From IMG/VR virus record IMGVR_UViG_2974629454_000001, positions 59,119 through 123,118 of that record: 64,000 nucleotides of DNA; one strand, given 5' to 3'. Made by a program: the position numbers and the translations under genes. The DNA comes from Streptomyces virus LukeCage (taxonomy: Duplodnaviria > Heunggongvirae > Uroviricota > Caudoviricetes). Positions 3,346 through 56,105 of the stretch are shown piece by piece (within the stretch, counting starts at the first letter, position 1; each line of letters starts with the position of its first letter). The notes under the pieces were generated by a model. The model was not told the DNA's origin. It saw only the letters and a list, made by a program, of their open reading frames with translations, and searched no databases.

Positions 3346-4237
3346 TGCTGCATTGCGTGGAGGTATCGGCTACGGTCGTCAGACGCTAATCTGGGGCAGT
3401 AAGTCAGCCGGTAAGTCAACCTTCTGCCTGGGAACGCTAGGTCTGGCGCAGGCTGCGGGTAAGAAGGTAGCGTTCATCGACTCAGAGCAGTCCTTTGATC
3501 CGTCATGGGCTGAAAGACTGGGAGTCGACACAAGAAAGTTGATCTATACAGACGTAAAGACGATTGAAGATATGGTTGGGGCCGGTGTCGAATTTATGAA
3601 GGCTGGCATCGATGTTGTAACTGTAGACTCAATCTCAGCCCTATTGTCATCTGCATATTTTGAGAAGGACAAGAAGGGCGATGAGCTAAAGGAACTTAGC
3701 GGAACTAAGCAGATTGGTTCAGAGGCTCGTGAGCTTGCAAATGGTGTAAAGATGCTTAACTACGCCAACAAGAATACAGCACTTCTATTGATCTCACAGG
3801 TGAGAAACAAGATCACAACTTATGGCGCAATGCATCAGGCTACTGGTGGACATGCTGTAGACTTCTTTAGCAGCACGGTTATCAAGCTATGGTCATCTGC
3901 ACGTGAGGCCGATCAGATTCAGGGGGAAGTCTACAATGGAGACATGATTCTTAAGGAGCCTATCGGACGTGAAGTCACCTGGAGCATTGATAAGAACAAG
4001 CTAGGTCCGCCAAACAAGACCGGAAGTTACAACCTATTCTACGATGGTTCATTCATCGGAATTGATAATCTTGGCGAAGCCATCGATCTGGCAATCGCTC
4101 TGGGAATTGTAGAAAAGAAGGGCAACTGGCTTTACTACCAGGACATTAAGGAAAATGGCAAGGCCGGATTCACTGCTGTTCTGAGGGCAAGCGAGGAGCT
4201 TTCCGCCAAGCTAATTGGGGAGGTGGAAAGTGCATAA
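3233..4237 (+). CDS. RecA-family ATPase (Sak4/RadA-like recombinase); start uncertain (TTG 3206, ATG 3233 or ATG 3296)
   Basis: Walker A GSKSAGKST followed by FIDSEQSFDP and a RecA-like core. Confidence 0.7.
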   Translation: MELEEEILAKLSPKVLARAKMGSEVILQKQPTPSTGLNAALRGGIGYGRQTLIWGSKSAGKSTFCLGTLGLAQAAGKKVAFIDSEQSFDPSWAERLGVDTRKLIYTDVKTIEDMVGAGVEFMKAGIDVVTVDSISALLSSAYFEKDKKGDELKELSGTKQIGSEARELANGVKMLNYANKNTALLLISQVRNKITTYGAMHQATGGHAVDFFSSTVIKLWSSAREADQIQGEVYNGDMILKEPIGREVTWSIDKNKLGPPNKTGSYNLFYDGSFIGIDNLGEAIDLAIALGIVEKKGNWLYYQDIKENGKAGFTAVLRASEELSAKLIGEVESA

Positions 4238-4427
4238 TCCTTTCGAAGAAACCCCGGCGCAAGAGAGGCCGATTCAGCCAGGCATTTTGATTGATGGAAG
4301 CTTCTCTTGTATGACCTGTGGTGAAGTGGTTGACGAAGCGGAGTATTTGCCAGTCGATAAGATTCTCGGTTGGCTGTGCTCAGAAGGACATAAGTCCTTG
4401 ATTGAAAACTTTAACCTAGGAGCGTAA
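4230..4427 (+). CDS. Zn-ribbon protein (GTG start)
   Basis: GGAGG Shine-Dalgarno 7 nt upstream of GTG; cysteine/histidine pattern CMTCGEV...CSEGH. Confidence 0.45.
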   Translation: MHNPFEETPAQERPIQPGILIDGSFSCMTCGEVVDEAEYLPVDKILGWLCSEGHKSLIENFNLGA

Positions 4428-4747
4428 TGACAGAGCTGAATGAGATTAAGAGAGACGGCGGAAAAGCTCAAAAGAATTCTGGCCGTGGAAAGATTCAAAA
4501 GGGCGATGCCAAGCTAGGTCCATTCTGTTACGACATCAAGGAGTATGCTAATTCCTTTAGTGTCTCTAAGGATGTTTGGGGGAAGGTTTGCACAGATGCC
4601 TTCCGATCTGGTAGGATGGTACCGGCACTCAAGCTAGTTCTTGGAGCTGGCGATGAGAAGACCCGAGTTTGGGTCATCGGAGACAATATGTTTCACGAGA
4701 TGCTAGAAGCATGGGAGGAGAAGTATGGCGAAGCTAATGAGAGTTGA
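4427..4747 (+). CDS. hypothetical protein
   Basis: ORF track; the ATG overlaps the upstream stop (TAATG). Confidence 0.5.
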   Translation: MTELNEIKRDGGKAQKNSGRGKIQKGDAKLGPFCYDIKEYANSFSVSKDVWGKVCTDAFRSGRMVPALKLVLGAGDEKTRVWVIGDNMFHEMLEAWEEKYGEANES

Positions 4748-12376: not shown

Positions 12377-12997
12377 ATGTCTACTACCACAGCAATGTTG
12401 CTCATCCTTGACCGATCTGGTAGCATGTCTAGTATCCAGATGGAGGCAGAGCAAGCGCTGAATGACTTCCTGACTAAGCAGAAGGCTGTTGACGGTCGAT
12501 GTGGAGTCAAGGTTGTTCAGTTTGACAGCGAAGTAGAAGATCTATTTGGTCCAGTTTCTCTAGCTAACGCACCTGAGATCAAGATCGTCCCTCGCGGAAT
12601 GACAGCACTACTTGACGCAATCGGCAAGTCTGTGACAGAATTCAGAGAGACGATGGACCATATGCCGGTGGATAAGCGACTCGTCGTTATCCTGACGGAT
12701 GGTCTAGAGAATGTTTCTCGGGAGTGGGATCTAGAAGCAGTTAACAAGCTGATTAGCGAGTCAAGGGAGTTGGGCTACGAGTTCATCTTCCTTGCCGCTA
12801 ACCAGGATGCAATTGCAACTGGTGCTCAAATGGGTATTCCAACAGCTTCAAGTTTGACCTTTGCAGCTAGTCCGGCTGGTGTGCGTGGCATGGGAATGAC
12901 CATGGACATGTATGTCACCAACTATCGTGAGGGTAAGTCAGCAGAATTCACTGATCAGGACAGGGCAACAGCCTCTGGCTTGACAGACGAAGACTAA
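12377..12997 (+). CDS. von Willebrand factor A (vWA) domain protein
   Basis: Metal-ion-dependent adhesion site (MIDAS) DRSGSMSS, then TALLDAIG and ILTDGLEN. Confidence 0.75.
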   Translation: MSTTTAMLLILDRSGSMSSIQMEAEQALNDFLTKQKAVDGRCGVKVVQFDSEVEDLFGPVSLANAPEIKIVPRGMTALLDAIGKSVTEFRETMDHMPVDKRLVVILTDGLENVSREWDLEAVNKLISESRELGYEFIFLAANQDAIATGAQMGIPTASSLTFAASPAGVRGMGMTMDMYVTNYREGKSAEFTDQDRATASGLTDED

Positions 12998-13104
12998 GCT
13001 GATAAAGTAGTAAATGTGGGTCGAAGGGCTCGGTCGGTTATCTTACATTGGAAATAGAAAGGTCATTAAATTGGCCACCCGACTCCCAACACTTATCCAC
13101 ATAT

Positions 13105-13178
13105 GCGGATGTAGTTTAATGGTAAAACCCCTGCCTTCCAAGCAGACGACGGGAGTTCGATTCTCCTCATCCGCTCCA
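13105..13178 (+). tRNA. tRNA-Gly(UCC), CCA encoded
   Basis: Acceptor gcggatg/catccgc; D arm gttt/aaac; anticodon loop cttccaa; T arm gggagttcgattctcct; CCA present. Confidence 0.8.
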
Positions 13179-13297
13179 AAGACCCGGATTCGCCTCTGCC
13201 ATCTTTTGTGGCATGCTACCGGCGAAATGCAGTCTAGAATGTATTTCGGTATCTGACCCGGATATGTTATGAGAGCGCCAGGCTCTTTAACTGGCAG

Positions 13298-13368
13298 GGT
13301 AACACATTCCCCTTTGGTGTAACGGCAACACAACAGACTCTGAATCTGTAGTTCCTAGTTCGAATCTA
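13298..13368 (+). tRNA. tRNA-Gln(CUG) (acceptor base imperfect)
   Basis: Anticodon arm acaga-ctctgaa-tctgt; T arm cctagttcgaatctagg; U1-A72. Confidence 0.5.
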
Positions 13369-13609
13369 GGTTGGGGAGCTGGTCCGACTTTACGATATCG
13401 GCGGATAGAACGGAACCGGAACTCACATAATAACCATGGTAAAGGTGAGGAATGGCGAAGGGAAATATGCGGGAAGCGATGGGTAAAACCTCCTCGGACC
13501 GACAATTTGTGGCCTAGTTGCAGGCCAGAATAGAACAATGAATCTCCCTGGGTTAGGCGCTTACGCCGTTCATTGTTTAAATTCAAAGGGGTCACGCCCA
13601 AGCAACTAT

Positions 13610-13680
13610 ATGTCCTAAGTGTTACGGTAGCACGGAAGGCTCCAACCCTTCAAGCGTGGGTTCGACTCCTACAGGACATG
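13610..13680 (+). tRNA. tRNA-Trp(CCA)
   Basis: Acceptor atgtcct/aggacat; anticodon arm gaagg-ctccaac-ccttc; T arm gtgggttcgactcctac. Confidence 0.65.
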
Positions 13681-13696
13681 CTTTTATAATAGAAAA

Positions 13697-13721
13697 CCCC
13701 GGTGCTAAGGTGCCGGGGTTT
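13697..13721 (+). terminator. rho-independent terminator after the tRNA cluster
   Basis: ccccgg tgctaaggtg ccgggg ttt. Confidence 0.55.
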
Positions 13722-14184
13722 AGCATTAGGAGCGATATGGGATACTACACCTCGATACCATCTTGAGATCGTCAGAGACAGTGAGAGAGCTAAGGATCTC
13801 ATTGATAATGCTGATAATGTCACCATTCCTGGAAGCTACGAACTGAATCTATCTAGACTGCTCAACGACAACTATGATACGATGAAGTGGTACGACTGGG
13901 AAGACGACATGGCTAGCCTGTCTAGAGATTGGCCAAACGTTCTGTTTGCCCTGAGTGGTGAAGGAGAGGAGCCCGGTGATCTTTGGAAGGCTTGGGTAAG
14001 AAACGGCAAGGTCATTAAGGTAGAGGGCAGAATCGTTTACGATGTCCCGAACCTTGACAAGGTGCTTCCGATCAACGATACTGTAGAAGAGAAGTACAGA
14101 GCAGAGAAGAAGGCAGAGCTTCAAGCCACTATCAAGGATCTTGAGAACAGGCTACAGGAGCTTAAGGGTCTATCTAAGGATTGA
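13702..14184 (+). CDS. hypothetical protein; start unresolved
   Basis: Long ORF. The only in-frame start upstream is a GTG inside the terminator hairpin. A Shine-Dalgarno-supported ATG at 13737 is in the +1 frame and stops after 9 codons. Confidence 0.4.
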   Translation: MLRCRGLALGAIWDTTPRYHLEIVRDSERAKDLIDNADNVTIPGSYELNLSRLLNDNYDTMKWYDWEDDMASLSRDWPNVLFALSGEGEEPGDLWKAWVRNGKVIKVEGRIVYDVPNLDKVLPINDTVEEKYRAEKKAELQATIKDLENRLQELKGLSKD

Positions 14185-14185
14185 T

Positions 14186-14353
14186 ATGGCACTCACTGGA
14201 AACCGCGATACTTGTTGGTTTCAGCGATGTGGCAATAAACCAATCCATCGAATTAGGTACTACAACAAGACCGTAATGGTTTGCAACAAGCACAAGAATC
14301 TCGATGGAGCAGGTTGTGCGCCAAGTCGCAGAAAGCCAAAGGGTTCAGCTTGA
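14186..14353 (+). CDS. Cys4 Zn-ribbon protein
   Basis: Shine-Dalgarno AAGGA; CWFQRCGN...CNKH. Confidence 0.45.
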   Translation: MALTGNRDTCWFQRCGNKPIHRIRYYNKTVMVCNKHKNLDGAGCAPSRRKPKGSA

Positions 14354-14407
14354 CAGACGCTACTGGGTCTGTTAGTATTAAGTACAACGCAGCGACAAAG
14401 CTGCTAT

Positions 14408-14479
14408 CTGGCACGGGGAAGATGGTAATCCATTCGCTTTGGAAGCGTAAGAAACCCGGTTCGATTCCGGGGTGCCAGA
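14408..14479 (+). tRNA. tRNA-Pro(UGG), C1:G72
   Basis: Acceptor ctggcac/gtgccag; loop tttggaa; T arm cccggttcgattccggg. Confidence 0.6.
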
Positions 14480-14502
14480 CTTGGACTGCAAAAGCAGTCT
14501 AT

Positions 14503-14577
14503 CGGGATGTAGCTCAGCTTGGTCAGAGCGCGCCGTTTGGGGCGGTGAAGTCGCAGGTTCGAATCCTGTCATCCCGA
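14503..14577 (+). tRNA. tRNA-Pro(UGG)-like second copy, C1:G72
   Basis: Acceptor cgggatg/catcccg; D arm gctc/gagc; loop tttgggg; T arm gcaggttcgaatcctgt. Confidence 0.55.
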
Positions 14578-14740
14578 CAATTTGGGTCGAATGGGATACG
14601 GTTATCATTCAATGGATAATAGGTTCGATTCCTATCGCTGGGTTCGCCCGGTAGATACAAGTCATCTGAGATTGTGTGTGGTAGGATGACATTAAGGACT
14701 ACACACTATCCGTTCCCGCCTTATACCTAAAGGACTTATT

Positions 14741-15262
14741 ATGACGGTACTTCTTAGGACTATCCACGGAAGCCATCTATATGGCCTCGCTCACAAAGGC
14801 TCTGACAAGGACATTTACGAAGTAATTGCAACCAGTCGAACCAAGCGTAAGCGAAACATTAAGCAAACCATTGTGAATGGTGTTGACAAGACGACGGTAG
14901 ATATGTCAACATTTATGAATATGGTTGATGAATGCGTACCTCAAGCACTTGAAGCGCTATGGACGCCGGTCGCTGAGATCGATAAGATCCACGAATTCCG
15001 GACTCAATATCGAGTGAATCGCGCCAAGATGAAGGAAGTATACATTCGAACCGCTCTAAACTTCGCTAAAAATGATGGAGTAAAGCAGAGGCGACACGCT
15101 ATCCGCCTGCTTCTCAATCTCGGCGCAGCTTTGGAATACGGAAAGTTTAACCCTCAGCTCTCCAACATGGACAAGTTCATTCTTGAATCTTCTATGGGCG
15201 AGACTGGAGCATATGAGGATGTCTTCCTAGGCGTTCTCGATGAAGTACAAAAGTGGGTCTGA
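14741..15262 (+). CDS. nucleotidyltransferase-fold protein (MNT-like)
   Basis: HGSHLYGLAHKGSDKD fits the GS...DxD motif. Confidence 0.55.
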   Translation: MTVLLRTIHGSHLYGLAHKGSDKDIYEVIATSRTKRKRNIKQTIVNGVDKTTVDMSTFMNMVDECVPQALEALWTPVAEIDKIHEFRTQYRVNRAKMKEVYIRTALNFAKNDGVKQRRHAIRLLLNLGAALEYGKFNPQLSNMDKFILESSMGETGAYEDVFLGVLDEVQKWV

Positions 15263-15279: not shown

Positions 15280-15356
15280 TGGGGCGTATACCCTCTGTCT
15301 GATAAACAGTTGAAAGGTTAAGTGGTCACATGTGGGTTCAACTCCCACCGTCCCAA
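15280..15356 (+). other. tRNA-like element (acceptor stem plus canonical T arm; internal arms non-canonical)
   Basis: tggggcg ... gtgggttcaactcccac cgtccca. Confidence 0.35.
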
Positions 15357-20272: not shown

Positions 20273-20386
20273 TGCTACTGTAGTTATAGGTGGTCAGTCG
20301 TAAGGGTTACAAAATCCGAATCGGCCCGCTACCTATGAGCAAGTTATTCCTACGCTTAGGCGGAGAATCCCTGCTTGCTCATTATT

Positions 20387-20463
20387 GGCCTCTGGGACTG
20401 CTAGGTTGTGGTCACTGCCCTGTCAAGGCAGACATCAGGCGGGTTCGATTCCCGTAGGGGTCG
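20387..20463 (+). tRNA. candidate tRNA-Asp(GUC) with an enlarged D loop and a 7-nt variable loop
   Basis: Acceptor ggcctct/aggggtc; anticodon arm ctgcc-ctgtcaa-ggcag; T arm gcgggttcgattcccgt. Confidence 0.4.
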
Positions 20464-20501
20464 CTTAAAAGATTAAAACAATAAGGTAATAGCGAGGTTT
20501 A

Positions 20502-20693
20502 ATGACCAAGCGAGAAGCTGCCATTGTGGCAGTATTCACGGGAATACTCATCGGTGATTTTGCCGATATGCACGAGTACATTGAAGAACTAGTTGATCGT
20601 CCAGTGTGGACGCATGAGCTAGCATCAGAGGAGTTTGCTGCCAAGCTTAAGGAACTAGCGAGGCCAGACTTTATGGAAATCGTTGTAGAGTAA
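20502..20693 (+). CDS. hypothetical protein
   Basis: ORF track; Shine-Dalgarno GAGGT. Confidence 0.5.
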   Translation: MTKREAAIVAVFTGILIGDFADMHEYIEELVDRPVWTHELASEEFAAKLKELARPDFMEIVVE

Positions 20694-20708
20694 CCAACAA
20701 AGGATATC

Positions 20709-20945
20709 ATGGCAGACAAGAATTGGAATGTCGAAGGTCATTACACCAAGGACGGTGTAAAGAAGTCTTTCGATAATGTTTATTCAGCTCCGAGCCCTTC
20801 AAGGGCGGAGAAGAAGGCCAAGGCTGATTTCACAAGCTATGTTGCTGCTAAGTACGAAAAGGGCAGCTTCGGTAAGCTTGTAGTTACTAAGGTCACTGAG
20901 TGGACCGAAAAGGATCGCCAGGCGCTTCTTAAGAGGATTAAGTAA
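20709..20945 (+). CDS. hypothetical Lys-rich protein (paralogue of the next gene)
   Basis: ORF track. Confidence 0.5.
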   Translation: MADKNWNVEGHYTKDGVKKSFDNVYSAPSPSRAEKKAKADFTSYVAAKYEKGSFGKLVVTKVTEWTEKDRQALLKRIK

Positions 20946-21163
20946 TGGGTGCGGGCAACAGGGCTAATTGGCAGGTTACTGGGAAGTACGACGTTAAGTA
21001 TCCTGATTCAAAGAAGGCCGTGACAGAGTCTTACAATCTAGCTTTCGATGCAAAGAGTAAGTCTGACGCCCTCAATAAGGCAAAGCAAGACTTCAAGGCA
21101 AACTCCAAGGTTAACGGAATCGTGTATTCTAATCTCCGTGATCTCCAGGCGAAGCCTATTTGA
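20945..21163 (+). CDS. hypothetical Lys-rich protein (paralogue of the previous gene)
   Basis: ORF track; a gcccttcggggc hairpin follows. Confidence 0.5.
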   Translation: MGAGNRANWQVTGKYDVKYPDSKKAVTESYNLAFDAKSKSDALNKAKQDFKANSKVNGIVYSNLRDLQAKPI

Positions 21164-21182
21164 TGTAGCCCTTCGGGGCAAA

Positions 21183-21253
21183 CCCGGCGTAGTGTAATGG
21201 AAACACGATACGTTGTCAGCGTATTATCGAGGGTTCGATTCCCTTCGTCGGGA
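21183..21253 (+). tRNA. tRNA-Asp(GUC)
   Basis: Acceptor cccggcg/cgtcggg; D arm gtgt-aatggaa-acac; anticodon arm atacg-ttgtcag-cgtat; T arm gagggttcgattccctt. Confidence 0.7.
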
Positions 21254-21255
21254 CT

Positions 21256-21330
21256 TTTGGGTCGAATGACTATCGGTTATCTGTCTATGAAACAGACCGA
21301 AACACGGTTCGAATCCGTGGATTGCTTTGG
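21256..21330 (+). ncRNA. tRNA-like module (candidate Y-RNA-like) with canonical T arm and anticodon-like hairpin but no pairing acceptor
   Basis: gggtcgaatgactatcggttatc ... gtct-atgaaac-agac ... cacggttcgaatccgtg. Confidence 0.4.
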
Positions 21331-21374
21331 CGCTAGGTTTACGGTCGATGTCAACAACTTACCCATACAACTTA

Positions 21375-21445
21375 ATTCGGGCCGAATGGAATCGGTTATC
21401 TTACACTGCAAATATAAGGTCGATTCCTACCAACTTGCCCGATCT
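21375..21445 (+). ncRNA. tRNA-like module (candidate Y-RNA-like)
   Basis: Terminal stem tcgggc/gcccga; D-like hairpin ccga-atggaa-tcgg; T-loop-like ggtcgattcc; shares the CGGTTATCTTACA...AAGGTCGATTCC box with 13027-13100 and 14588-14650. Confidence 0.4.
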
Positions 21446-21471
21446 TTTCATTTCTACGGAAGGATCAAAGG

Positions 21472-21807
21472 TTGGACACCGAAGCACGCATTGCGCGTTT
21501 CAAGGAGCTGTGGTCATCAGGCCAAAGCTATTGGGCAGAAGATATCGTTGATGAAATCAATGAAGAACTCGGTGAAGATGAGTTCAAGCTAAAGCATGTG
21601 GAAACAGTCGAAGAGGATACCTCTCGCTGGATGGATCACATGCTAGACATCGTTGAGATTGACGAAGGTGTCTTTGTCGGAGTACGCTGGGAAAGCGGTA
21701 AGACAGAGATGCAAGAGAATATGTATGAAGACGATGATGTCTATCTGCTAGAACGAGTAGAGAAGATCGTTACCACTGTTGAATGGAACGATGTAAAGAC
21801 TCTCTAA
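21472..21807 (+). CDS. hypothetical acidic protein (TTG start)
   Basis: ORF track. Confidence 0.45.
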   Translation: MDTEARIARFKELWSSGQSYWAEDIVDEINEELGEDEFKLKHVETVEEDTSRWMDHMLDIVEIDEGVFVGVRWESGKTEMQENMYEDDDVYLLERVEKIVTTVEWNDVKTL

Positions 21808-21843
21808 AACTAAATGCCCTACGAGGGCCGGAAAGGAAACAAA

Positions 21844-23472
21844 ATGTCCAACGCACTAACTAATGCCGCAAAGGCAACCAACAAGACTTCTCAGAAGCTG
21901 CCAGCAAAGGCAGGACAGGTCAAGAACAACGCTGGTGGATTCGTCTTCCAGGTTTCTGATCAGTCACGCCTTGAGCGCTTTCTGATTCTTGGAACCGATG
22001 GAGGAACGTATTACGTTTCTGAGGTTAACCACACTCAGTCAAACGTAACCTTCCTCAACGAGATGATTGAGCGAGACGAAGCCTCTGTACTGAACACAAT
22101 TGTTGATGTATCTGTCAATGGTCGTGCGTACAAGCAGTCTCCTGCCCTGTTCGCTCTAGCCTCTGTCATTGTCAACGGCAAGGATAAGCAGGCGGTCAAG
22201 GCGGTATTCAACAGGGTCGTAAGGACTGCTACTCACCTCTACGAGGTGGTTAACTACCTTAACGAGCTTGGTGGATGGGGTCGCGCAAAGCGAGAGATCG
22301 TAGCTGGCTGGTTCGACAAGGACGCTGATAAGCTTGCTTATCAGGCTGTCAAGTATCGTTCCCGCACGTTCGGTGGAAACACCTGGACGCTACGAGACGT
22401 AATGCGAAAGGCTCACCCACAGAACGTCAACACGTCTGTTGCTGATTTCGTCCTTGGCAAGGAGCACGCGGCTGTAGATGACCTCCGGGTTATCGAGGGC
22501 TTCAAGCTTATGCAGAAGGCGGAGTCTGTAGAGGCTGTTCACGCAGTTCTGCGGGATTACGAGATGCTTAGCTGGGAGACTATTCCAACGCAGTTCCTCA
22601 CGGATGCTAGCGTTTGGAAGCGACTCTTTGCTAATGGTCAGCTTCGTGGTCAGGCTGCTGTTCGAAACATCACTCGCCTCGCGCGTATTGGTGCTTTCAA
22701 GGACATGCGGTTCGCTGCGAACTTTGCTAGCCAGCTAGCGAATGAGGAAATGATTCGTCAGTCTCGACTGCACCCAATTAACTTCCTTAACGCTGCCGTT
22801 GTTTACGCAGAAGGCCAGGTGGATCGAAAGAACATCTGGGGCGGACGTGTAAAGAACTGGGAGACTGAGGCCGTTATTGTCGATGCAATCGATGAGGCGT
22901 TCCACAAGTCATTCAAGACCATTGAGCCAGCCGGTAAGAGGACGATGCTAGCCATCGACTGTTCCGGTTCAATGAGCACACAGGCTATGGGTCTCGACCT
23001 AAGCTGTGCGCAGGTTGCTGGTGCTATGGCAATGACCATTGCTCGTACTGAGCCAGCTCACATCATCCGTGGTTTCTCTTCACAGGGATACAACTGGCGT
23101 GATAGCGGTATGGCTGAACTAAAGATTACTGGTCGCAGCTCTCTTGCTCAGGCAATGAGTGCAATGCGTGCGGTAAACTGGGGAGGCACAGACTGCTCAC
23201 TGCCAATGACGTGGGCTCTTGAGAATGGTGTGGAAGTTGACACCTTCGTTGTTATCACTGATAACGAGACGTGGGCTGGCAAGATTCACCCATTCCAGGC
23301 TCTCAAGAACTATCGTAAGAGCACAGGTATTGATGCACGACTTGCTGTTCTAGGAGTCGCTTCAACTCCATTCACTATTGCTGATAGTTCCGACCGAGGG
23401 ATGATGGATTTCGTAGGGTTCGACAGCAATGCACCTCGTGTGCTCGCTGACTTCTCTGCGGGTCGCATCTGA
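21844..23472 (+). CDS. rsr: Ro60/Rsr orthologue (TROVE domain + C-terminal vWA)
   Basis: N-terminal RLERFLILGTDGGTYYVSE is the Ro60 signature; C-terminal metal-ion-dependent adhesion site (MIDAS) IDCSGSMS and VVITDNETWAG; length is typical of Ro60. Confidence 0.8.
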   Translation: MSNALTNAAKATNKTSQKLPAKAGQVKNNAGGFVFQVSDQSRLERFLILGTDGGTYYVSEVNHTQSNVTFLNEMIERDEASVLNTIVDVSVNGRAYKQSPALFALASVIVNGKDKQAVKAVFNRVVRTATHLYEVVNYLNELGGWGRAKREIVAGWFDKDADKLAYQAVKYRSRTFGGNTWTLRDVMRKAHPQNVNTSVADFVLGKEHAAVDDLRVIEGFKLMQKAESVEAVHAVLRDYEMLSWETIPTQFLTDASVWKRLFANGQLRGQAAVRNITRLARIGAFKDMRFAANFASQLANEEMIRQSRLHPINFLNAAVVYAEGQVDRKNIWGGRVKNWETEAVIVDAIDEAFHKSFKTIEPAGKRTMLAIDCSGSMSTQAMGLDLSCAQVAGAMAMTIARTEPAHIIRGFSSQGYNWRDSGMAELKITGRSSLAQAMSAMRAVNWGGTDCSLPMTWALENGVEVDTFVVITDNETWAGKIHPFQALKNYRKSTGIDARLAVLGVASTPFTIADSSDRGMMDFVGFDSNAPRVLADFSAGRI

Positions 23473-23517
23473 TCTCTGAGAATTGCCGAAAACCCATCTG
23501 TATGGTATCCTTATCAT

Positions 23518-24042
23518 ATGGATGGGTTTTTTGGTGGTCATAAGGCGGGCGAAGAAGTCGCCGGAAAGAGACTCGTGGCGTATGCTGGCATGAATAAGCA
23601 TCGCCATCATGCATGGACCTGGGAATGTATAAATTGTGGGCGAGTCTCTGGCCCATCTACTTACTCCCATTTGAAGAGGTCTATCAGATGTATCGGCTGT
23701 AACGTTGGAGAAAATAGCGGCCGGTGGAAGGGGTACAAAGAGCTGACTGGTGTATGGTTGGGTCAGTACGCCTATGGAGCAAAGAAGCGCGGAATCGAGT
23801 GGGATGTTACACCTGAACAACTATGGGATCTTTGGATATCCCAAGATGGTAAGTGTGCGTATACTGGAAGACAGCTCAAGCATGGTGTAGACACCTCTCT
23901 TGACAGGATTGATAATAGCAAGGGTTACATTCCAGGAAATATCCAATGGGTTCATCCAGATATCAATAGGATGAAGAGTGATTTCGATGCCTCATACTTT
24001 ATTAAACTATGTGAGGAGGTAAGTAGAAATCAGCAGAATTGA
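23518..24042 (+). CDS. HNH endonuclease
   Basis: Zn-ribbon CINCG...CIGCN followed by SLDRIDNSKGYIPGNIQWVHPDIN (HNH motif). Confidence 0.7.
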   Translation: MDGFFGGHKAGEEVAGKRLVAYAGMNKHRHHAWTWECINCGRVSGPSTYSHLKRSIRCIGCNVGENSGRWKGYKELTGVWLGQYAYGAKKRGIEWDVTPEQLWDLWISQDGKCAYTGRQLKHGVDTSLDRIDNSKGYIPGNIQWVHPDINRMKSDFDASYFIKLCEEVSRNQQN

Positions 24043-28439: not shown

Positions 28440-28493
28440 CTTTGATGGTAAACGCGATATCATCAAATGCATATCAGGTCGCTCCTGATATGA

Positions 28494-28619
28494 GGAGTGT
28501 AGTTTAATTGGCAAAACCGCGAAATGCAATGTCGAACGGGAAGTGCTGCTGAGCTAAAGGCAGGTCTTACCTTAGTAGATATCAGAGTAGCAGTTGCGGG
28601 TTCGAGTCCCGTCACTCCG
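28494..28619 (+). other. 126-nt tRNA-like RNA: acceptor + D arm + T arm with about 50 nt inserted between the D and T regions
   Basis: ggagtg...cactcc acceptor; D arm gttt-aattggca-aaac; T arm gcgggttcgagtcccgt; two hairpins upstream (28441-28491). Confidence 0.3.
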
Positions 28620-28759
28620 CTAGCCTGAGATGACGATCCGATGTAGGTCCCCTAGGGCTTGCGCAGGCCCGAAGGGCATTCGGGAAAGGTGCCTAGCTAG
28701 GTCCGTCTACCAATAAGGTGAGAGTTTTTCACGGTTTTCCTCATAATTAAACCGTGTTT

Positions 28760-43678: not shown

Positions 43679-44755
43679 ATGAAGTTCACCAAGATCTTCT
43701 CACAGGAGTTGCTTGACGAGATGATCTCAGAGGGCTATGTCCGGGCGCAGTTTCATCCGGTCCTGCCTCTCAAGATTCTCAACTACTCTGAGAAGACTCA
43801 GTTCGCTGGAAAGTGGAACGACTGCACGCTTAACTGTCGTGGGTTGATCGTTGATCTCGACGGCAACTTGATTGCTCGTCCTTTCATGAAGTTCTTCAAC
43901 TTGGGTGATTCTCAGTCCGCACAACTTGACTGGGACGCTCCGGTTGAGGTTACGGACAAGAAGGACGGATCAATGGGAGTCCTGTACTCCTATGGTGGTC
44001 AGTTGGCGATTGCTACTCGTGGATCATTCATGTCAGATCAGGCAATCCACGGTACTCGTATTCTTAACGAGCGCTACAGCCACATTCAGTTCGTCTCAGA
44101 CTACACATTTATCTTCGAGATCGTTTACCCTGAGAACAGGATTGTTCTGGACTACGGTTCAATGGACGACCTGATTCTTCTGGGTGCGGTTCACAAGGAA
44201 TACGGTTACGTTTGTGGTCCTCTGGAGGCTCAGGCAATTGTAGATTGGGACGGGCCGGTGACGGAGGTCTTCAATTACAGCTCATTGCGTGAGGCGTCTG
44301 GAGCGCAGTACAGGAAGAACGCAGAGGGTTTCGTAGTCCGCTCTGGCAACAAGATGGTCAAGATCAAGCAGGCAGATTACGTTGAGCTGCACCGCATGAT
44401 CTCCATGCTTTCAGAGCGTTCCGTATGGAGTCAGCTTACCGAGGGCAAGACGATTCTTGAGATTTGTGAGGCACTGCCTGACGAGTTCCACGGATTTGTC
44501 AAGGACGTTGGTGGCAAGCTCCTTGAGGACTACGAGCGCATTGAGGTTGAGGTTTATGGTATCTACCAGAACCTTCTAACTTCTCTGGGCGAGGGCTTCA
44601 CGCGACGTGATTTCGCAATGGCTGCAAACCGAATTGATCTCTACAGGTCTCACATGTTCAACCTGCTTGACGGGAAGAGCATCAATGAGCTAATCTGGAA
44701 GCAGATCAGGCCGGAAGCCAAGCGAGAGGACGTACACCCTACCAATGCGGGCTAA
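43679..44755 (+). CDS. ATP-dependent RNA ligase, Rnl2-like nucleotidyltransferase
   Basis: Motif I TDKKDGSMG (KxDG), motif IV NAEGFVVRS (EGFVV) and motif V MVKIKQADY; Shine-Dalgarno GGAGGA. Confidence 0.7.
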   Translation: MKFTKIFSQELLDEMISEGYVRAQFHPVLPLKILNYSEKTQFAGKWNDCTLNCRGLIVDLDGNLIARPFMKFFNLGDSQSAQLDWDAPVEVTDKKDGSMGVLYSYGGQLAIATRGSFMSDQAIHGTRILNERYSHIQFVSDYTFIFEIVYPENRIVLDYGSMDDLILLGAVHKEYGYVCGPLEAQAIVDWDGPVTEVFNYSSLREASGAQYRKNAEGFVVRSGNKMVKIKQADYVELHRMISMLSERSVWSQLTEGKTILEICEALPDEFHGFVKDVGGKLLEDYERIEVEVYGIYQNLLTSLGEGFTRRDFAMAANRIDLYRSHMFNLLDGKSINELIWKQIRPEAKREDVHPTNAG

Positions 44756-45503: not shown

Positions 45504-46400
45504 GTGAAGATGCAGCTTCTCATCCTCCGGGGAATTCCCGGTTGTGGTAAGAGCACTTGGGCGCATGATGTGTGGCTCAAGGAAAACCCGAATGGTGTTC
45601 GAGTCAATCGTGATGACATTCGTATGCAGCTCTTTGGCCGGGAGACCGGAGTAGACGAGGAGCTTGTTACTCGAATTGAGCACGGAATGGTGGATGGGGC
45701 TCTGTCAAAGGGCTACTCTGTCGTTGTCGATGACACGAACATTCGACACAAGTACATCAAGGAATTCGTCAAGATCGGTCAGCGCCATGGTGCTAGTGTT
45801 TCAGTTAAGCAGTTTGACGTTTCACTTGAGACGGCAATTCAGCGAAACACTGTTCGTGCTGCACTCGGTGGTCGAGACGTTCCTGAGTCTGTCATTCGCA
45901 AGATGCACCAGTCCATGAAGTCTAGTGGAGTTTTCACTGACTTCCACACAAGCGTTACGGCTGTTCGTCCTTACGATCGTCCCGAAGGTGCAGAGAAGGT
46001 TTACCTCTTTGACATTGATGGCACGCTTGCTGAGATGAACACTCGTGATCCTTTCTACTGGAAGGGTGTTGGCGAGGACGATCCGCGACGACAGGTGATC
46101 ATCACTGCTCAGGCTCATGCTAAGGCAGGATACAAGATCATCGTTATGAGCGGTCGAGATGGCTCATGCCGCAATGAAACAATCGCTTGGCTGGAACTCT
46201 ACGACATTCCTTTCTCAGAATTGCACATGCGTGCTGAGGGGGACATGCGTAAGGACTCTGTCGTCAAGCAAGAGCTGTTCGATGAGCACATTCGTGACAT
46301 CTATGATGTTGTGGCTGTGTACGATGATCGTCAGCAGGTTGTTGACATGTGGCGTGCGATGGGCATAGACTGTTTCCAGGTAGCACCCGGAAACTTCTGA
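45504..46400 (+). CDS. polynucleotide 5'-kinase/3'-phosphatase (T4 Pnk-like)
   Basis: N-terminal P-loop GIPGCGKST; C-terminal HAD motifs VYLFDIDGTLAE, IIVMSGRD and AVYDDRQQ. Confidence 0.8.
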   Translation: MKMQLLILRGIPGCGKSTWAHDVWLKENPNGVRVNRDDIRMQLFGRETGVDEELVTRIEHGMVDGALSKGYSVVVDDTNIRHKYIKEFVKIGQRHGASVSVKQFDVSLETAIQRNTVRAALGGRDVPESVIRKMHQSMKSSGVFTDFHTSVTAVRPYDRPEGAEKVYLFDIDGTLAEMNTRDPFYWKGVGEDDPRRQVIITAQAHAKAGYKIIVMSGRDGSCRNETIAWLELYDIPFSELHMRAEGDMRKDSVVKQELFDEHIRDIYDVVAVYDDRQQVVDMWRAMGIDCFQVAPGNF

Positions 46401-49999: not shown

Positions 50000-50017
50000 C
50001 AATGATATAATCTTCAC

Positions 50018-50311
50018 ATGGAGATTAATCGTCATAGAAAAGAGGGGAGCTTTGTTAGGCGTCATAGTCTTTCACTAGCTCTCCTCTTTGTTTTTGTTTT
50101 GCAGTCTGTCATCGTATGGTTCTCAGGATATGAAGACTGGGCCGGTGATCAGATGGCCCACAAGCAACCTGTTGACATCTGGCCTGGTTACCTGATACAT
50201 TGGGTCTATGAAATGGCAGTCAGCCTGGTAGCTGACACATACGGCGCACTCGTGTTGGTCCTCTTTGCTAAATGGTTTTATGAACAGGGTAGCCCAGAGA
50301 GCGAGGATTAA
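50018..50311 (+). CDS. membrane protein
   Basis: Three hydrophobic helices. Confidence 0.5.
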   Translation: MEINRHRKEGSFVRRHSLSLALLFVFVLQSVIVWFSGYEDWAGDQMAHKQPVDIWPGYLIHWVYEMAVSLVADTYGALVLVLFAKWFYEQGSPESED

Positions 50312-50425
50312 TGTTTTATTTGAACTGTAGTCGCTGTGGTCCCCACTATAGCGACGATGACTACATGGAAAACGGAGTGTGCGCCCCGTGTATCCTTGTA
50401 GAGATTACTGAGGAGTTGGGACTAT

Positions 50426-50632
50426 ATGAGAAAGACGAAGTGGATTAAGCCTGGCAATCGTGTGATGGACCGGGCTTATATGTATGACAAGAGTGGCAAT
50501 GTCCACACTGGTGAAGCTCTACTGCTAGCGCTACTCCTGCATGCCAAGGGAAGAACTAAGCGCGGCGAGAAAGAGCTTCTAGAAGTAAGCAAGATTATGA
50601 AGGACCCGAATCTACCAAAGGATAAGAAGTGA
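50426..50632 (+). CDS. hypothetical protein
   Basis: ORF track. Confidence 0.45.
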   Translation: MRKTKWIKPGNRVMDRAYMYDKSGNVHTGEALLLALLLHAKGRTKRGEKELLEVSKIMKDPNLPKDKK

Positions 50633-51012
50633 TTCAGAGCAAGCTTCCTGAACTTGTTACTCGCTACGAGTGGCACTACATTGACATGGAAGAGTTTATT
50701 CAGGAACTTTGGGGTCAAAAGTGGGAAGGCGGTGCTGCAATGGGTTTTCCTGCGCAGGATACCTACCACGACTTTGAGGTAACCGGTGGCTATATCGGCG
50801 AAGGAATTGACTCAGAGGGCAACACTCTCACCACCCGATGGATGGATGAAGAGTACACCTATGATCAGGCCAAGGAGCTGATCGAGAAGTTCAAGGTTGA
50901 CGGCATGCCCCGCGAGGAGTATGCTAATCCTGGAGCTGAACTTCTGCTCAACTGGCTGGCATTCGAAGGCCACATTCCCACTGGAAACTACCGTATTATC
51001 GTTTGGTGGTGA
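50629..51012 (+). CDS. hypothetical protein
   Basis: ORF track. Confidence 0.5.
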   Translation: MIQSKLPELVTRYEWHYIDMEEFIQELWGQKWEGGAAMGFPAQDTYHDFEVTGGYIGEGIDSEGNTLTTRWMDEEYTYDQAKELIEKFKVDGMPREEYANPGAELLLNWLAFEGHIPTGNYRIIVWW

Positions 51013-51278
51013 CAATGTTTCATCCGAAGCGTGAAGTGTATTACACCATTGAGGCGTTCGATCTGAATGAGCTTGTTGAGGGCGAGTTTGGATTTGCTTG
51101 GGATTTCGTTGCTGCGGAAGAGTGCAGTAATGATAGCGCTCATGTCATTCATCCTGATCTTAATGGTCTCGAAGAGGATGATGAGATTCAGTATGTTCCC
51201 GCTCGAACCATCATTGGTGAACTTGTGAAGCGAGAGATTCTTCCTTCTGGTAAGTATCTCGTGGAGGTGTGCTGGTAA
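51003..51278 (+). CDS. hypothetical acidic protein
   Basis: ORF track. Confidence 0.5.
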   Translation: MVVTMFHPKREVYYTIEAFDLNELVEGEFGFAWDFVAAEECSNDSAHVIHPDLNGLEEDDEIQYVPARTIIGELVKREILPSGKYLVEVCW

Positions 51279-52253: not shown

Positions 52254-52307
52254 CGAAGTGATCAGCACTGTGTTAATGTTGTACTAACAACGAACGAAAG
52301 GAACGAC

Positions 52308-53078: not shown

Positions 53079-53164
53079 TCCGCCTTATAAACAAGTCTGT
53101 GCTATTCTTTTAGAGAATTCTTCAAGAATGCGCAGACTTGAAGACAAGGAGGTGAAAGTAAAAG

Positions 53165-56102: not shown

Positions 56103-56105
56103 TCA

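What the first reader, a model, noticed from the sequence alone, without database searches (positions are those of the whole stretch)
21160..23472. Ro60/Rsr orthologue directly downstream of a tRNA-Asp gene and two tRNA-like (Y-RNA-like) modules
The 21844-23472 protein carries the Ro60 signature (FVFQV...RFLILGTDGGTYY) and a C-terminal vWA domain with a metal-ion-dependent adhesion site (MIDAS).

In bacteria, rsr genes are normally adjacent to Y RNA genes, whose effector domain mimics a tRNA.

The 600 bp immediately upstream hold a bona fide tRNA-Asp plus two modules (21256-21330 and 21375-21445). Each module has a canonical GGTTCGAATCC-type T arm and D- or anticodon-like hairpins, but no standard cloverleaf.

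This is the arrangement expected for a phage-borne Rsr-Y RNA ribonucleoprotein. It may act together with the RNA-repair genes further downstream.
Basis: partly seen in the sequence, partly recalled or inferred. Interest (0 to 1): 0.85.

Follow-up and report, generated by a model that had tools for sequence, protein, structure and literature searches.

The report
Phage Ro60 gene with Y RNAs
This Streptomyces phage carries a Ro60-type RNA-binding protein gene preceded by small unannotated partner RNA genes (Y RNAs), with two more copies hidden in its tRNA gene cluster; this kind of system is already known from other phages and bacteria.

Summary
The window is Streptomyces phage LukeCage (100% identity). 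ORF 21844-23472 is a full-length Ro60/Rsr orthologue (TROVE + Ro60 vWA, intact MIDAS), already annotated as "Ro-like RNA binding protein".

- Module 1 spans 21257-21366. It has a terminal stem, a GUCGAAUG motif, a second stem, a V hairpin and a true T arm, but no D arm or acceptor-like stem.
- Module 2 spans 21377-21442. It is a short stem-bulge Y RNA with no T arm; its "GGTCGATTCC" is one strand of a helix.

Rfam's YrlA model finds neither module, but it also scores a published phage YrlA far below threshold. A covariance model I built from rsr-linked modules of other phages finds exactly four significant sites in the window: these two, plus 13016-13100 and 14582-14730 in the tRNA array. The helices covary strongly.

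Three of the four modules lie 2-4 nt from a tRNA gene, which suggests release by tRNA-processing enzymes.

Phage Rsr-Y RNA systems are already published, so this is a new member of a known kind. The proposed link to RNA-repair genes, which lie 20 kb away, is unsupported.

The parts
21183..21254 (+). tRNA-Asp(GTC). Its 3' end lies 2-3 nt before Y RNA module 1.
   Evidence: ARAGORN; Rfam tRNA 60.6 bits. The same tRNA-Asp to module 1 spacing of 2-3 nt is seen in Tomas, Naboo, NootNoot, Evy, Bmoc, Anedea, L030, L129 and L132.
21257..21366 (+). Y RNA module 1, the kind with a T arm.
- H1: UGGGU 21258-62 / ACCCA 21361-65
- GNCGAAN0-1G motif: GUCGAAUG 21261-68
- H2a: GAC 21268-70 / GUC 21350-52
- H2b: AUCGG 21272-76 / UCGAU 21345-49
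- UUAUC: 21277-81
- V hairpin: UCUGU 21280-84 / ACAGA 21292-96, with a 7-nt loop
- T arm: 21303-21319
- A roughly 25-nt weakly structured segment, 21320-21344

There is no D arm and no acceptor-like stem.
   Evidence: The R1 covariance model gives 35.9 bits, E 2.5e-6; this module was not in the training set. The MFE fold shows the same architecture. H1 and the T stem covary in 14 relatives. The module is 96% identical to Wofford and Genie2, where rsr is 85-91% identical.
21377..21442 (+). Y RNA module 2, a short stem-bulge (YrlB-like) type.
- H1: UCGGGC 21377-82 / GCCCGA 21437-42
- Motif: GCCGAAUG
- H2: GGAAUCG 21388-94 / CGAUUCC 21421-27
- Apical hairpin
- Followed by UCUUUUC, 21443-49
   Evidence: MFE -19.9 kcal/mol, z = -2.9. 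H1 and H2 covary across 23 short modules: 89% of cells paired versus 31-47% in slid controls. There are compensatory H2 changes in Wofford, Genie2 and Tomas. Full-length but sub-threshold matches to Rfam RF01656 (nematode sRNA ceN72-3_ceN74-2; 32.1 bits, cutoff 38) and to RF00019 Y_RNA (16.5 bits).
21472..21807 (+). gp128, a 111-aa protein of unknown function that lies between the Y RNAs and rsr.
   Evidence: No Pfam hit. Matches phrog_13073, unknown function. Homologues are found only in BE-cluster relatives among all loci fetched.
21844..23472 (+). rsr (Ro60 orthologue; GenBank gp129, 'Ro-like RNA binding protein').
   Evidence: Pfam TROVE plus vWA_Ro60. PDB 2NVO 1.7e-98, 9NEN 1.1e-84, 1YVP 2.8e-82, all full length, with MIDAS conserved. 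phrog_850.
23491..23533 (+). Intrinsic terminator after rsr: a long hairpin followed by U6.
   Evidence: Fold of 23486-23536: -27.4 kcal/mol, z = -6.9, 0 of 200 shuffles as stable.
13016..13100 (+). Y RNA module A, a paralogue that ends 4 nt before tRNA-Gly (13105).
- H1: GUGGGU / AUCCAC
- Motif: GUCGAAGG
- H2: GGG..GUCGG / CCGAC.CCC
- UUAUC

The hairpin in the T-arm position lacks the T-loop sequence.
   Evidence: R1 gives 34.7 bits, E 4.8e-6; not in the training set. The MFE fold shows the architecture. The module is intergenic in GenBank and conserved in BE-like contigs. A promoter-like site lies at 12980-13008.
14582..14730 (+). Y RNA module B, a paralogue that starts 3 nt after tRNA-Pro (ends 14578) and finishes at the Shine-Dalgarno sequence of the RlaP-like nucleotidyltransferase gp109.
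- H1: UUGGGU / ACCUAA
- Motif: GUCGAAUG
- H2: GGGA.ACGG / CCGU.UCCC
- T arm: AUAGG-UUCGAUU-CCUAU
- A UUCG hairpin
- Two overlapping helices, either a pseudoknot or alternative folds
   Evidence: R1 gives 22.7 bits, E 0.0033, but with a shorter 3' end. The long version is supported by H2 covariation (GAGA/UCUC in L044, L064, L089, L099) and by the MFE fold.

Best explanation
The region is the rsr locus of Streptomyces phage LukeCage: a Ro60/Rsr ring protein gene preceded, on the same strand, by two unannotated Y RNA genes.
- Module 1 is a reduced YrlA/YrlB-like RNA with a T arm.
- Module 2 is a short stem-bulge Y RNA that keeps both strands of the metazoan-type Ro-binding helix.
- Two further paralogous Y RNA modules sit 7-9 kb upstream, inside the tRNA array.

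Proposed mechanism, with shown and inferred steps marked:
1. Inferred. The modules are transcribed rightward together with the tRNA genes. They are cut out by the tRNA-processing enzymes (RNase P at tRNA 5' ends, RNase Z or 3' trimming at tRNA 3' ends), because three of the four lie 2-4 nt from a tRNA gene.
2. Inferred by homology. Rsr binds the conserved GGNCGAA / CAACUUNCCC bulged helix formed by the 5' and 3' ends of each RNA.
3. Inferred from D. radiodurans, Salmonella and Thermus phage phiLo. The Y RNA tethers Rsr to a host 3'-5' exoribonuclease such as PNPase, so that structured or misfolded RNAs are threaded through the ring and degraded or trimmed during infection.

What is shown here: the protein family, the RNA motifs, the covarying helices, the conservation, and the genomic linkage.
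For: Protein: TROVE plus Ro60-vWA domains, and a full-length match to solved Rsr and Ro60 structures with MIDAS intact.

RNA motifs and fold: all four modules carry GNCGAAN0-1G and the following UUAU(C), as published for YrlA and YrlB. All fold into H1, an asymmetric internal loop and H2.

Covariance model: R1 was built from 23 short rsr-linked modules. It finds exactly these four sites in the window at E < 0.01, all on the + strand and all intergenic. It finds none in another 60 kb of the genome. The published ET08 YrlA scores 32 bits with R1, against 36 and 35 bits for module 1 and module A.

Covariation:
- A2: 89% of cells paired versus 31-47% in slid controls; covariation score 0.60 versus 0.23 in shuffles; 0 of 500 shuffles reach it.
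- A3 (89 modules): 92% paired, score 0.62 versus 0.23.
- The T stem shows 3-4 pair types per position.

Motif linkage to rsr: the 16-base 5' motif alone retrieves about 30 viral contigs that carry an Rsr homologue (31-94% identity) in the fetched locus. It also retrieves actinobacterial rsr loci.

Conservation: module 1 is 96% identical where rsr is 85-91% identical. The whole RNA region is 97-98% identical in relatives whose 2.4 kb locus is about 91% identical.

Precedent:
- In M. smegmatis, YrlA and YrlB lie upstream of rsr, are processed from one precursor, and YrlB has a T arm.
- In Thermus phage phiLo, Ro60 binds two phage-encoded Yrl RNAs and host PNPase in vitro.

tRNA abutment: 26 of 56 modules in tRNA-containing loci lie 7 nt or less from a same-strand tRNA. 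Gordonia phage Forza has a strictly alternating tRNA-Y array.
Against: - No Rfam family reaches its gathering score. YrlA (RF02553) gives no hit on any LukeCage module, even with the laxest filters.
- No module has the D arm and acceptor-like stem that define the YrlA tRNA-like domain. The third hairpin seen in Samistivirus relatives is degenerate in LukeCage.
- The MFE z-scores of module 1, module A and module B are unremarkable (-0.5 to -1.1).
- R1's training set was partly collected with a motif taken from LukeCage itself, and A3 is fitted to the model, so those statistics lean toward the structure.
- There is no transcript, end-mapping or Rsr-binding evidence for this phage or its relatives. 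PNPase recruitment is extrapolated from other systems.
Confidence: 0.75

Rival explanations
1. The modules are cis-acting RNA structures rather than trans-acting Rsr partners. Module 2's GC-rich closing stem plus the UCUUUUC tract would act as a terminator or attenuator ahead of gp128-rsr. Module B would be a 5' leader controlling translation of the RlaP-like nucleotidyltransferase. Modules 1 and A would be processing spacers in tRNA operons.
For: - Module 2 is followed at once by a U-rich tract and by a 29-nt spacer that is 97-100% conserved in Karimacvirus relatives (90% in Tomas) and contains the gp128 ribosome-binding site.
- Module B's H1 3' strand abuts the Shine-Dalgarno sequence AAAGGA of gp109 in every relative.
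- Modules A and B lie 7-9 kb from rsr and touch tRNA genes.
Against: - The same motifs and helices occur next to rsr in many phages and actinobacteria with no tRNA or comparable ORF nearby.
- The 5' motif matches the Ro-contact sequence conserved from bacteria to vertebrates.
- A cis role and a trans role are not mutually exclusive.
Confidence: 0.12
2. The modules are decayed tRNA genes or tRNA fragments left behind in a tRNA-rich region, with no function of their own.
For: - Modules 1 and B contain canonical T arms and lie in a region with 43 tRNA genes.
- Other odd tRNA-like relics exist in the window, at 15280-15356 and 28493-28620.
- In Forza, GenBank annotates one such module as tRNA-Gln and ARAGORN calls a tRNA-Leu over another.
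Against: - Compensatory substitutions maintain helices H1 and H2, which have no counterpart in tRNA.
- The modules are better conserved than the neighbouring protein genes.
- Modules 2 and A have no tRNA-like sequence at all.
- The GNCGAA...UUAUC signature is shared with rsr-linked RNAs in genomes whose fetched loci lack tRNA genes.
Confidence: 0.05
3. They are genuine Y RNAs, but they act on the host's Rsr or other tRNA-binding proteins as decoys or anti-defence RNAs, rather than forming an exoribonuclease-tethering particle with the phage Rsr.
For: - The phiLo authors propose that hijacking PNPase is an anti-CRISPR strategy.
- The function of the tRNA-like domains is unknown even in bacteria.
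- Four paralogues per genome is more than one ring protein would seem to need.
Against: - Tight, conserved linkage of modules to a phage-encoded rsr across very divergent phages argues for a cognate pair.
- No evidence either way was obtainable here.
Confidence: 0.08

Closest known systems
YrlA and YrlB of Mycobacterium smegmatis and Salmonella Typhimurium (Chen et al. 2014, PMC4201824; Rfam RF02553)
   Same: - They lie upstream of rsr on the same strand.
- They have the GNCGAAN0-1G motif near the 5' end, followed by YUAY.
- One longer RNA with a T arm is followed by a shorter one.
- In M. smegmatis both are processed from a single precursor, and YrlB also has a T arm.
   Different: - No LukeCage module has the D arm plus acceptor-like stem of YrlA, and none matches RF02553.
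- There are four paralogues, two of them 7-9 kb from rsr.
- Three of them abut tRNA genes.
- A cluster-specific ORF separates the RNAs from rsr.
- There is no rtcBA operon context.
Mycobacteriophage (cluster C, e.g. ET08) Rsr and YrlA
   Same: - A large, tRNA- and tmRNA-rich actinobacteriophage.
- Rsr is 40% identical.
- Several Y-like modules lie immediately upstream of rsr. ET08 has three: L001 2059-2127, 2157-2296 and 2335-2400.
- They share the UCGGUUAYC motif.
   Different: - The middle ET08 module is a full YrlA with D arm and acceptor-like stem. It gives a weak RF02553 hit of 37 bits.
- The ET08 modules are not adjacent to tRNA genes in the fetched locus.
Thermus phage phiLo Ro60 with Yrl1 and Yrl2 (NAR 2025, PMC12135203)
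   Same: - A phage-encoded Ro60 with two unannotated Y RNA-like sequences just upstream.
- Those RNAs were recognised by the CGAA motif and a stem-bulge-stem fold.
- This is the experimental precedent for phage Ro60 binding such RNAs and assembling with host PNPase.
   Different: - Different host phylum.
- Binding and structure were shown there, and nothing has been shown for LukeCage.
- No tRNA-array embedding is reported in the passages I read.
Deinococcus radiodurans Rsr-Yrn1-PNPase particle
   Same: - The closest solved protein (2NVO, 1.7e-98).
- Like module 2, its Y RNA keeps both strands of the Ro-binding helix.
- Like module 1, Yrn1 has a T arm but no full D arm.
   Different: - A cellular, stress-induced system.
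- Yrn1 has a different order of arms.
- The PNPase tethering shown there is only inferred here.
Metazoan Y RNAs (RF00019) and nematode sRNAs ceN72-3/ceN74-2 (RF01656)
   Same: Module 2 aligns over the full length of both models. It shares UCGGNCCGA...GGUUAUC on the 5' strand and ACCAACUUGNCCG on the 3' strand, and is followed by UCUUUU.
   Different: - Both scores are below the gathering thresholds (32.1 and 16.5 bits, against 38 for each).
- The transcription machinery is bacterial rather than Pol III.
- The similarity reflects the conserved Ro-binding helix, not membership of those families.
- That RF01656 contains nematode stem-bulge Y RNA homologues is my own recollection. It was not checked here.

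Membership tests
Ro60/Rsr (TROVE) protein family | An N-terminal TROVE (HEAT-repeat ring) domain followed by a Ro60-type vWA domain. | tested here: met
   PF05731 at 3.7e-35 (residues 26-318) and PF25045 at 2e-59 (residues 366-537). Full-length alignment to 2NVO, 9NEN and 1YVP.
Ro60/Rsr (TROVE) protein family | A MIDAS motif (DxSxS ... T ... D) in the vWA domain. | tested here: met
   DCSGSMS, GGTDC and TDNET align with DVSGSMT, GGTDC and TDNET of D. radiodurans Rsr.
Ro60/Rsr (TROVE) protein family | Binds Y RNA and misfolded RNA. | not testable with these tools
   Needs immunoprecipitation or EMSA.
Bacterial and phage Y RNA (YrlA/YrlB sense of Chen et al. 2014) | Encoded near rsr (within about 4 kb) on the same strand. 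| tested here: met
   Modules 1 and 2 lie 478-587 nt and 402-467 nt upstream of the rsr start, on the + strand. Modules A and B lie 8.7 and 7.1 kb upstream, outside the 4 kb criterion.
Bacterial and phage Y RNA (YrlA/YrlB sense of Chen et al. 2014) | A GNCGAAN0-1G motif near the 5' end. | tested here: met
   GUCGAAUG (modules 1 and B), GCCGAAUG (module 2) and GUCGAAGG (module A).
Bacterial and phage Y RNA (YrlA/YrlB sense of Chen et al. 2014) | The 5' and 3' ends pair into a stem that flanks an internal loop or bulge carrying the motif, supported by covariation. | tested here: met
   H1 is 98-99% paired, with 4-5 of its 6 pairs showing double changes. H2 also covaries. The MFE folds agree.
Bacterial and phage Y RNA (YrlA/YrlB sense of Chen et al. 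2014) | Bound by Rsr in vivo and present as a discrete small RNA. | not testable with these tools
   No expression or binding data for LukeCage or any BE-cluster phage was found in the literature searched.
YrlA (Rfam RF02553) | Reaches the family's gathering score of 69 bits. | tested here: not met
   No RF02553 hit at E <= 10 on 20300-24000, 21250-21455 or 12990-14745. Control: the published ET08 YrlA scores 37.4 bits and Comrade scores 28.2 bits.
YrlA (Rfam RF02553) | A tRNA-like domain with a T arm. | tested here: met
   Module 1 has CACGG-UUCGAAU-CCGUG at 21303-21319, and the stem covaries in relatives. Module B has AUAGG-UUCGAUU-CCUAU. Modules 2 and A lack it.
YrlA (Rfam RF02553) | [quoted passage not shown] | tested here: not met
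   After the T arm, module 1 has only about 25 nt with no stable hairpin (-1.3 kcal/mol). Samistivirus relatives have one 4-bp hairpin with a 7-nt GG-containing loop. Comrade, ET08 and Nonomuraea YrlA have both arms.
Metazoan Y RNA (RF00019) / nematode sRNA ceN72-3_ceN74-2 (RF01656) | Reaches the gathering score of 38 bits that each family sets. | tested here: not met
   Module 2 scores 16.5 bits (E 0.55) against RF00019 and 32.1 bits (E 3.9e-5 in a 206-nt search) against RF01656. Both alignments are full length.

The most novel reading that the evidence does not exclude
In tRNA-rich actinobacteriophages, Y RNAs may be integral members of tRNA operons. They would be arranged as alternating tRNA-Y-tRNA polycistrons whose Y RNA ends are made by RNase P and RNase Z. 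The several paralogous Y RNAs would then direct the phage Rsr toward surveillance or protection of the phage's own tRNA pool, for example against host tRNA-targeting nucleases. One paralogue, module B, would double as an Rsr-responsive 5' leader for an RlaP-like RNA-repair nucleotidyltransferase.
Probability: 0.2. Interest if true: 0.6.

Novelty: new member of a known kind. Interest (0 to 1): 0.35.

Why it matters
Ro60-Y RNA particles are conserved from bacteria to humans, yet their function in phages is barely explored. Only one phage system (phiLo) has been studied biochemically.

This analysis adds about four unannotated Y RNA genes per genome to a large family of Streptomyces phages (92 records share the locus). 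Many of these phages grow on standard Streptomyces laboratory hosts (S. griseus ATCC 10137, S. lividans).

It shows that Rfam's YrlA model misses these RNAs. It provides a simple motif and a covariance model that recover them, and arrays of 3-6 such modules, in many uncultivated phages.

The close abutment to tRNA genes gives a concrete, testable hypothesis for how phage Y RNAs are matured. It also flags likely tRNA mis-annotations.

None of this overturns current understanding. It extends a known system.

Tried and rejected
- **Rfam searches.** I searched at gathering threshold on the whole window and at E <= 10 on 20300-24000. Neither gave a Y RNA family hit. Only a 206-nt search gave sub-threshold Y_RNA and RF01656 hits for module 2. 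I rejected 'no Rfam hit means not a Y RNA' after the ET08 positive control scored 37 bits against a cutoff of 69.\n- **RNAalifold on a MAFFT alignment of module 1 relatives.** It recovered only H1 and the T arm and proposed a spurious CGA/UCG helix, because MAFFT misregisters the 3' strand of H2 and the V loop. I used single-sequence folds and the covariance-model alignment instead.\n- **gp128 as a general Rsr/Y RNA partner.** Rejected. Homologues occur only in BE-cluster relatives, and the protein has no Pfam family.\n- **Functional coupling to RNA ligase and PNK by adjacency.** Rejected. These genes are real (RNA_lig_T4_1 at 7e-17, HAD_PNKP at 2e-51), but they lie 20-22 kb downstream with dozens of genes in between.\n- **Further modules elsewhere in the genome.** None were found in record 1-50000 or 123000-133195. 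The best score was 20 bits, inside a CDS. Record 50001-59118 was not scanned.\n- **Relaxed regex plus 6-bp complement scan.** The background is about 2 hits per shuffled window, so only the strict motif and the covariance-model hits were kept.\n- **Motif scan of bacterial genomes.** It was mostly chance matches; only 7 of 120 loci carried rsr. It is useful only for showing that the motif also occurs at actinobacterial rsr loci.\n- **Residue-level check of Y RNA-contact residues in Rsr.** Dropped. The one paper held did not confirm my recollection of which mutants affect Y RNA binding.\n- **Two reviews on bacterial Y RNAs.** Neither was in the library.

Full report
**Identity of the window**

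The 2.4 kb around the finding is 100% identical to Streptomyces phage LukeCage (MH590597; Stanwilliamsviridae, Karimacvirus; host S. griseus). Window position 21100 corresponds to record position 80218. The window holds 43 tRNA genes and a tmRNA gene, all on the + strand.

GenBank annotates tRNA-Asp (gp127), a hypothetical protein (gp128) and a "Ro-like RNA binding protein" (gp129). It annotates nothing between tRNA-Asp and gp128.

**The protein**

ORF 21844-23472 matches Pfam TROVE (3.7e-35) and the Ro60 vWA domain (2e-59). It aligns over its full length with three solved structures:
- D. radiodurans Rsr (2NVO, 1.7e-98)
- human RO60 (9NEN, 1.1e-84)
- Xenopus Ro60 (1YVP, 2.8e-82)

The MIDAS residues are conserved. 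A strong intrinsic terminator follows the gene: -27.4 kcal/mol, z = -6.9, then U6. This part of the finding is correct, and it is already in the public annotation.

**The RNA modules: what is there**

Read against the published Y RNA features (Chen et al. 2014), the gap contains two modules. Both begin with a nearly identical 5' strand:
- module 1: UUGGGUCGAAUGACUAUCGGUUAUC (from 21257)
- module 2: UCGGGCCGAAUGGAAUCGGUUAUC (from 21377)

In each module the first 5-6 nt pair with a 3' strand:
- module 1: ...CAACAACUUACCCA, ending at 21365
- module 2: ...ACCAACUUGCCCGA, ending at 21442

These pairs form a terminal stem (H1). An asymmetric internal loop follows, and then a second helix (H2).

*Module 1 (21257-21366).* H2 closes a multi-branch junction. 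The junction carries a 5-bp hairpin with a 7-nt loop in the position of the YrlA V arm. It also carries a canonical T arm, CACGG-UUCGAAU-CCGUG at 21303-21319, and about 25 nt without a stable hairpin.

*Module 2 (21377-21442).* This is a simple stem-bulge RNA.

**Rfam test and its control**

Rfam contains YrlA (RF02553, gathering score 69). No LukeCage module matches it at E <= 10, even when only 206 nt are searched.

The control shows this is weak evidence:
- the published YrlA of mycobacteriophage ET08 scores only 37.4 bits
- a complete YrlA in Streptomyces phage Comrade, with D arm and acceptor-like stem, scores 28.2 bits

In the 206-nt search, module 2 aligns over the full length of two models:
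- metazoan Y_RNA: 16.5 bits, E 0.55
- RF01656, "Nematode sRNA ceN72-3_ceN74-2": 32.1 bits (cutoff 38), E 3.9e-5

Both strands of the helix match, and so does the trailing UCUUUU. From memory, RF01656 contains nematode stem-bulge RNAs regarded as Y RNA homologues. I did not verify that here.

**Independent model and covariation**

A scan of viral contigs for GGGTCGAA-N(3-12)-CGGTTATC returned 120 loci. About 30 of them carry an Rsr homologue of 31-94% identity inside the fetched locus. Often 3-6 modules sit in tandem.

I aligned 23 short modules from rsr loci. These included ET08, Comrade and many uncultivated phages with 31-40% identical Rsr. I then tested a two-helix structure on the alignment:
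- 89% of cells form pairs, against 31-47% when partners are slid
- the covariation score is 0.60, against 0.23 in shuffles, and 0 of 500 shuffles reach it
- 11 of 15 pairs show double substitutions

The covariance model built from this alignment (R1) was run on the window with filters off. It gives exactly four hits with E < 0.01, all on the + strand.

| Site | Bits | E-value | Note |
|---|---|---|---|
| 21377-21442 (module 2) | 65.6 | 2.4e-13 | in the training set |
| 21257-21366 (module 1) | 35.9 | 2.5e-6 | not in the training set |
| 13016-13100 (module A) | 34.7 | 4.8e-6 | not in the training set |
| 14582-14669 (module B) | 22.7 | 0.0033 | model picks a short 3' end |

The published ET08 YrlA scores 32.1 bits with the same model. 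Across 89 aligned hits, 92% of cells pair and the covariation score is 0.62, against 0.23 in shuffles. That alignment is fitted to the model, so this number leans toward the structure.

In the module 1 family (14 distinct sequences):
- H1 shows U-A, C-G and A-U at one position
- four of the five T-stem pairs show compensatory double changes, with up to three or four pair types per position
- H2 changes are compensatory: GUCGG/CCGAC, UUCGG/CCGAA and AUCGG/CCGAU; also GAC/GUC, GAU/AUC, GAAG/CUUC and GAG/CUC

Module 1 is 96% identical between LukeCage and Wofford or Genie2, where rsr is 85-91% and gp128 85-86% identical. Module 2 differs from those relatives mostly by paired changes in H2.

**Two further modules**

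*Module A (13016-13100).* It ends 4 nt before tRNA-Gly.

*Module B.* It starts 3 nt after tRNA-Pro. Its full extent is most likely 14582-14730. The H2 of the long version, GGGA.ACGG / CCGU.UCCC, becomes GAGA.ACGG / CCGU.UCUC in relatives, and the MFE fold uses it.

Both modules are intergenic and conserved in BE-like contigs.

R1 finds nothing convincing in another 60 kb of the LukeCage genome. Record 50001-59118 was not scanned.

**Relation to tRNA genes**

Three of the four LukeCage modules lie 2-4 nt from a tRNA gene on the same strand. Among R1 hits in loci that contain tRNA genes, 26 of 56 lie 7 nt or less from one. This holds in several unrelated phage lineages.

Gordonia phage Forza shows a strictly alternating array with 3-8 nt spacers: tmRNA, Y, tRNA-Arg, Y, tRNA-Gln, Y, tRNA-Ile, Y, tRNA-Met. 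GenBank calls one of these Y modules "tRNA-Gln", and ARAGORN calls a "tRNA-Leu" over another.

This makes co-transcription with tRNAs, followed by release by RNase P and RNase Z-type processing, the most economical maturation model. It is an inference. In M. smegmatis, YrlA and YrlB are processed from one precursor and YrlA is an RNase P substrate.

**How it likely works**

Shown here:
- the protein family
- the RNA motifs
- the covarying helices
- the conservation
- the genomic linkage

Inferred:
- Rsr binds the GGNCGAA-containing helix.
- The resulting particle recruits a host 3'-5' exoribonuclease.

The precedents for the inferred steps are the D. radiodurans and Salmonella Rsr-Y RNA-PNPase complexes. 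There is also the in vitro Ro60-Yrl-PNPase complex of Thermus phage phiLo. The role of the T arm is unknown even in the model systems.

**RNA-repair link**

The RNA ligase (window 43679-44755) and PNK-phosphatase (45510-46400) genes are genuine. They are 20-22 kb away and are not in an rsr operon.

The only repair-type gene adjacent to a module is gp109 (14741-15262). It is an RlaP-like nucleotidyltransferase: PF10127 at 22.3 bits, just under the cutoff of 23, and phrog_388. Its Shine-Dalgarno sequence directly follows module B in all relatives.

**Comparison and novelty**

Phage-encoded Rsr with adjacent Y RNAs was reported for 22 phages in 2014 and studied biochemically for phiLo in 2025. 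The Rsr of BE-cluster Streptomyces phages is routinely annotated.

I found no report or annotation of Y RNAs in these phages.

The LukeCage RNAs satisfy the general Y RNA criteria. They fail the YrlA-specific ones: D arm, acceptor-like stem and Rfam score. The closest resemblances are:
- Module 1 resembles the T-arm-bearing YrlB of M. smegmatis and a T-arm-only module next to a full YrlA in Nonomuraea.
- Module 2 resembles D. radiodurans and metazoan Y RNAs, in that it keeps both helix strands.

I therefore class this as a new member of a known kind. Two organisational features appear unreported in the library I could search. One is that the paralogues are dispersed through the tRNA array. The other is that they abut tRNA genes.

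**Verdict**

The finding is real and its core interpretation is right. Its anatomy needed correcting, and the system is not new in kind. Interest is moderate to low (0.35).

Noticed in passing
window 13016-13100 and 14582-14730: Two additional Y RNA-like modules lie in the tRNA array, 7-9 kb upstream of rsr. Module A ends 4 nt before tRNA-Gly. Module B starts 3 nt after tRNA-Pro. Both are unannotated in GenBank and conserved in BE-like phage contigs.
   Followed up: yes
window 14640-14741: Module B contains two overlapping helices: GUCAUC/GAUGAC and GUGU.GGUAG/CUACACAC. They form either an H-type pseudoknot or alternative folds. The first helix covaries (GCCAUCC/GGAUGGC in L089). The module's 3' strand runs straight into the Shine-Dalgarno sequence (AAAGGA) of gp109, an RlaP-like RNA-repair nucleotidyltransferase, in every relative. 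A cis-regulatory role is possible.
   Followed up: partly
window 15280-15356: An unannotated tRNA-like element (Rfam tRNA 30.3 bits) with acceptor, anticodon (loop CUGAUAA) and T arms. Only 4 nt stand in place of the D arm, and the variable region is 18 nt. It lies between gp109 and gp110, and ARAGORN does not call it.
   Followed up: partly
window 28493-28620: An unannotated tRNA-like element (Rfam tRNA 32.5 bits). Its acceptor, D and T arms are intact, but a 71-nt insertion replaces the anticodon arm. It lies in the 320-nt gap between tRNA-Leu and tRNA-Phe.
   Followed up: partly
L017 (Gordonia phage Forza MK814760) 3423-4541: Downstream of rsr, tRNA genes and Y RNA-like modules alternate strictly with 3-8 nt spacers: tmRNA, Y, tRNA-Arg, Y, tRNA-Gln, Y, tRNA-Ile, Y, tRNA-Met. 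The GenBank 'tRNA-Gln' at 3974-4041 covers the 5' part of a Y module. ARAGORN calls a spurious tRNA-Leu (4160-4248) over another.
   Followed up: partly
L007 (Streptomyces phage Genie2) 268-978: A 468-nt ORF (gp129) is inserted between tRNA-Asp and module 1. A remnant, 'CUUUUGUUCGGUUAUC', sits right after the tRNA. Peebs and EGole also have ORFs at this junction. The tRNA-Y junction looks like an insertion hot spot.
   Followed up: no
window 12980-13008: A sigma-70-like promoter match (TTGACA, 17 nt, TAAAGT, with an extended -10 TG) ends 7 nt before the first base of module A. Module A's 5' end could therefore be a primary transcript start. This is a consensus match only.
   Followed up: no
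window 21443-21471: The 29-nt spacer after module 2 (UCUUUUCAUUUCUACGGAAGGAUCAAAGG) is 97-100% conserved in the Karimacvirus relatives Wofford and Genie2 (90% in Tomas), although flanking genes are 75-91% identical. Module 2's GC-rich closing stem plus the U tract could act as a leaky terminator ahead of gp128-rsr.
   Followed up: no
IMG/VR loci L058, L047, L096, L032, L035, L084, L088: Uncultivated phage contigs that encode Rsr homologues of 31-41% identity carry tandem arrays of 3-6 Y RNA-like modules next to rsr. Some of the modules are full YrlA types and some are short.
   Followed up: partly
window 20387-20464 and 21183-21254: There are two tRNA-Asp(GTC) genes 720 nt apart. They differ in length (78 versus 72 nt). 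Only the second is followed by a Y RNA module. The same pair occurs in Tomas, NootNoot and Wofford.
   Followed up: no
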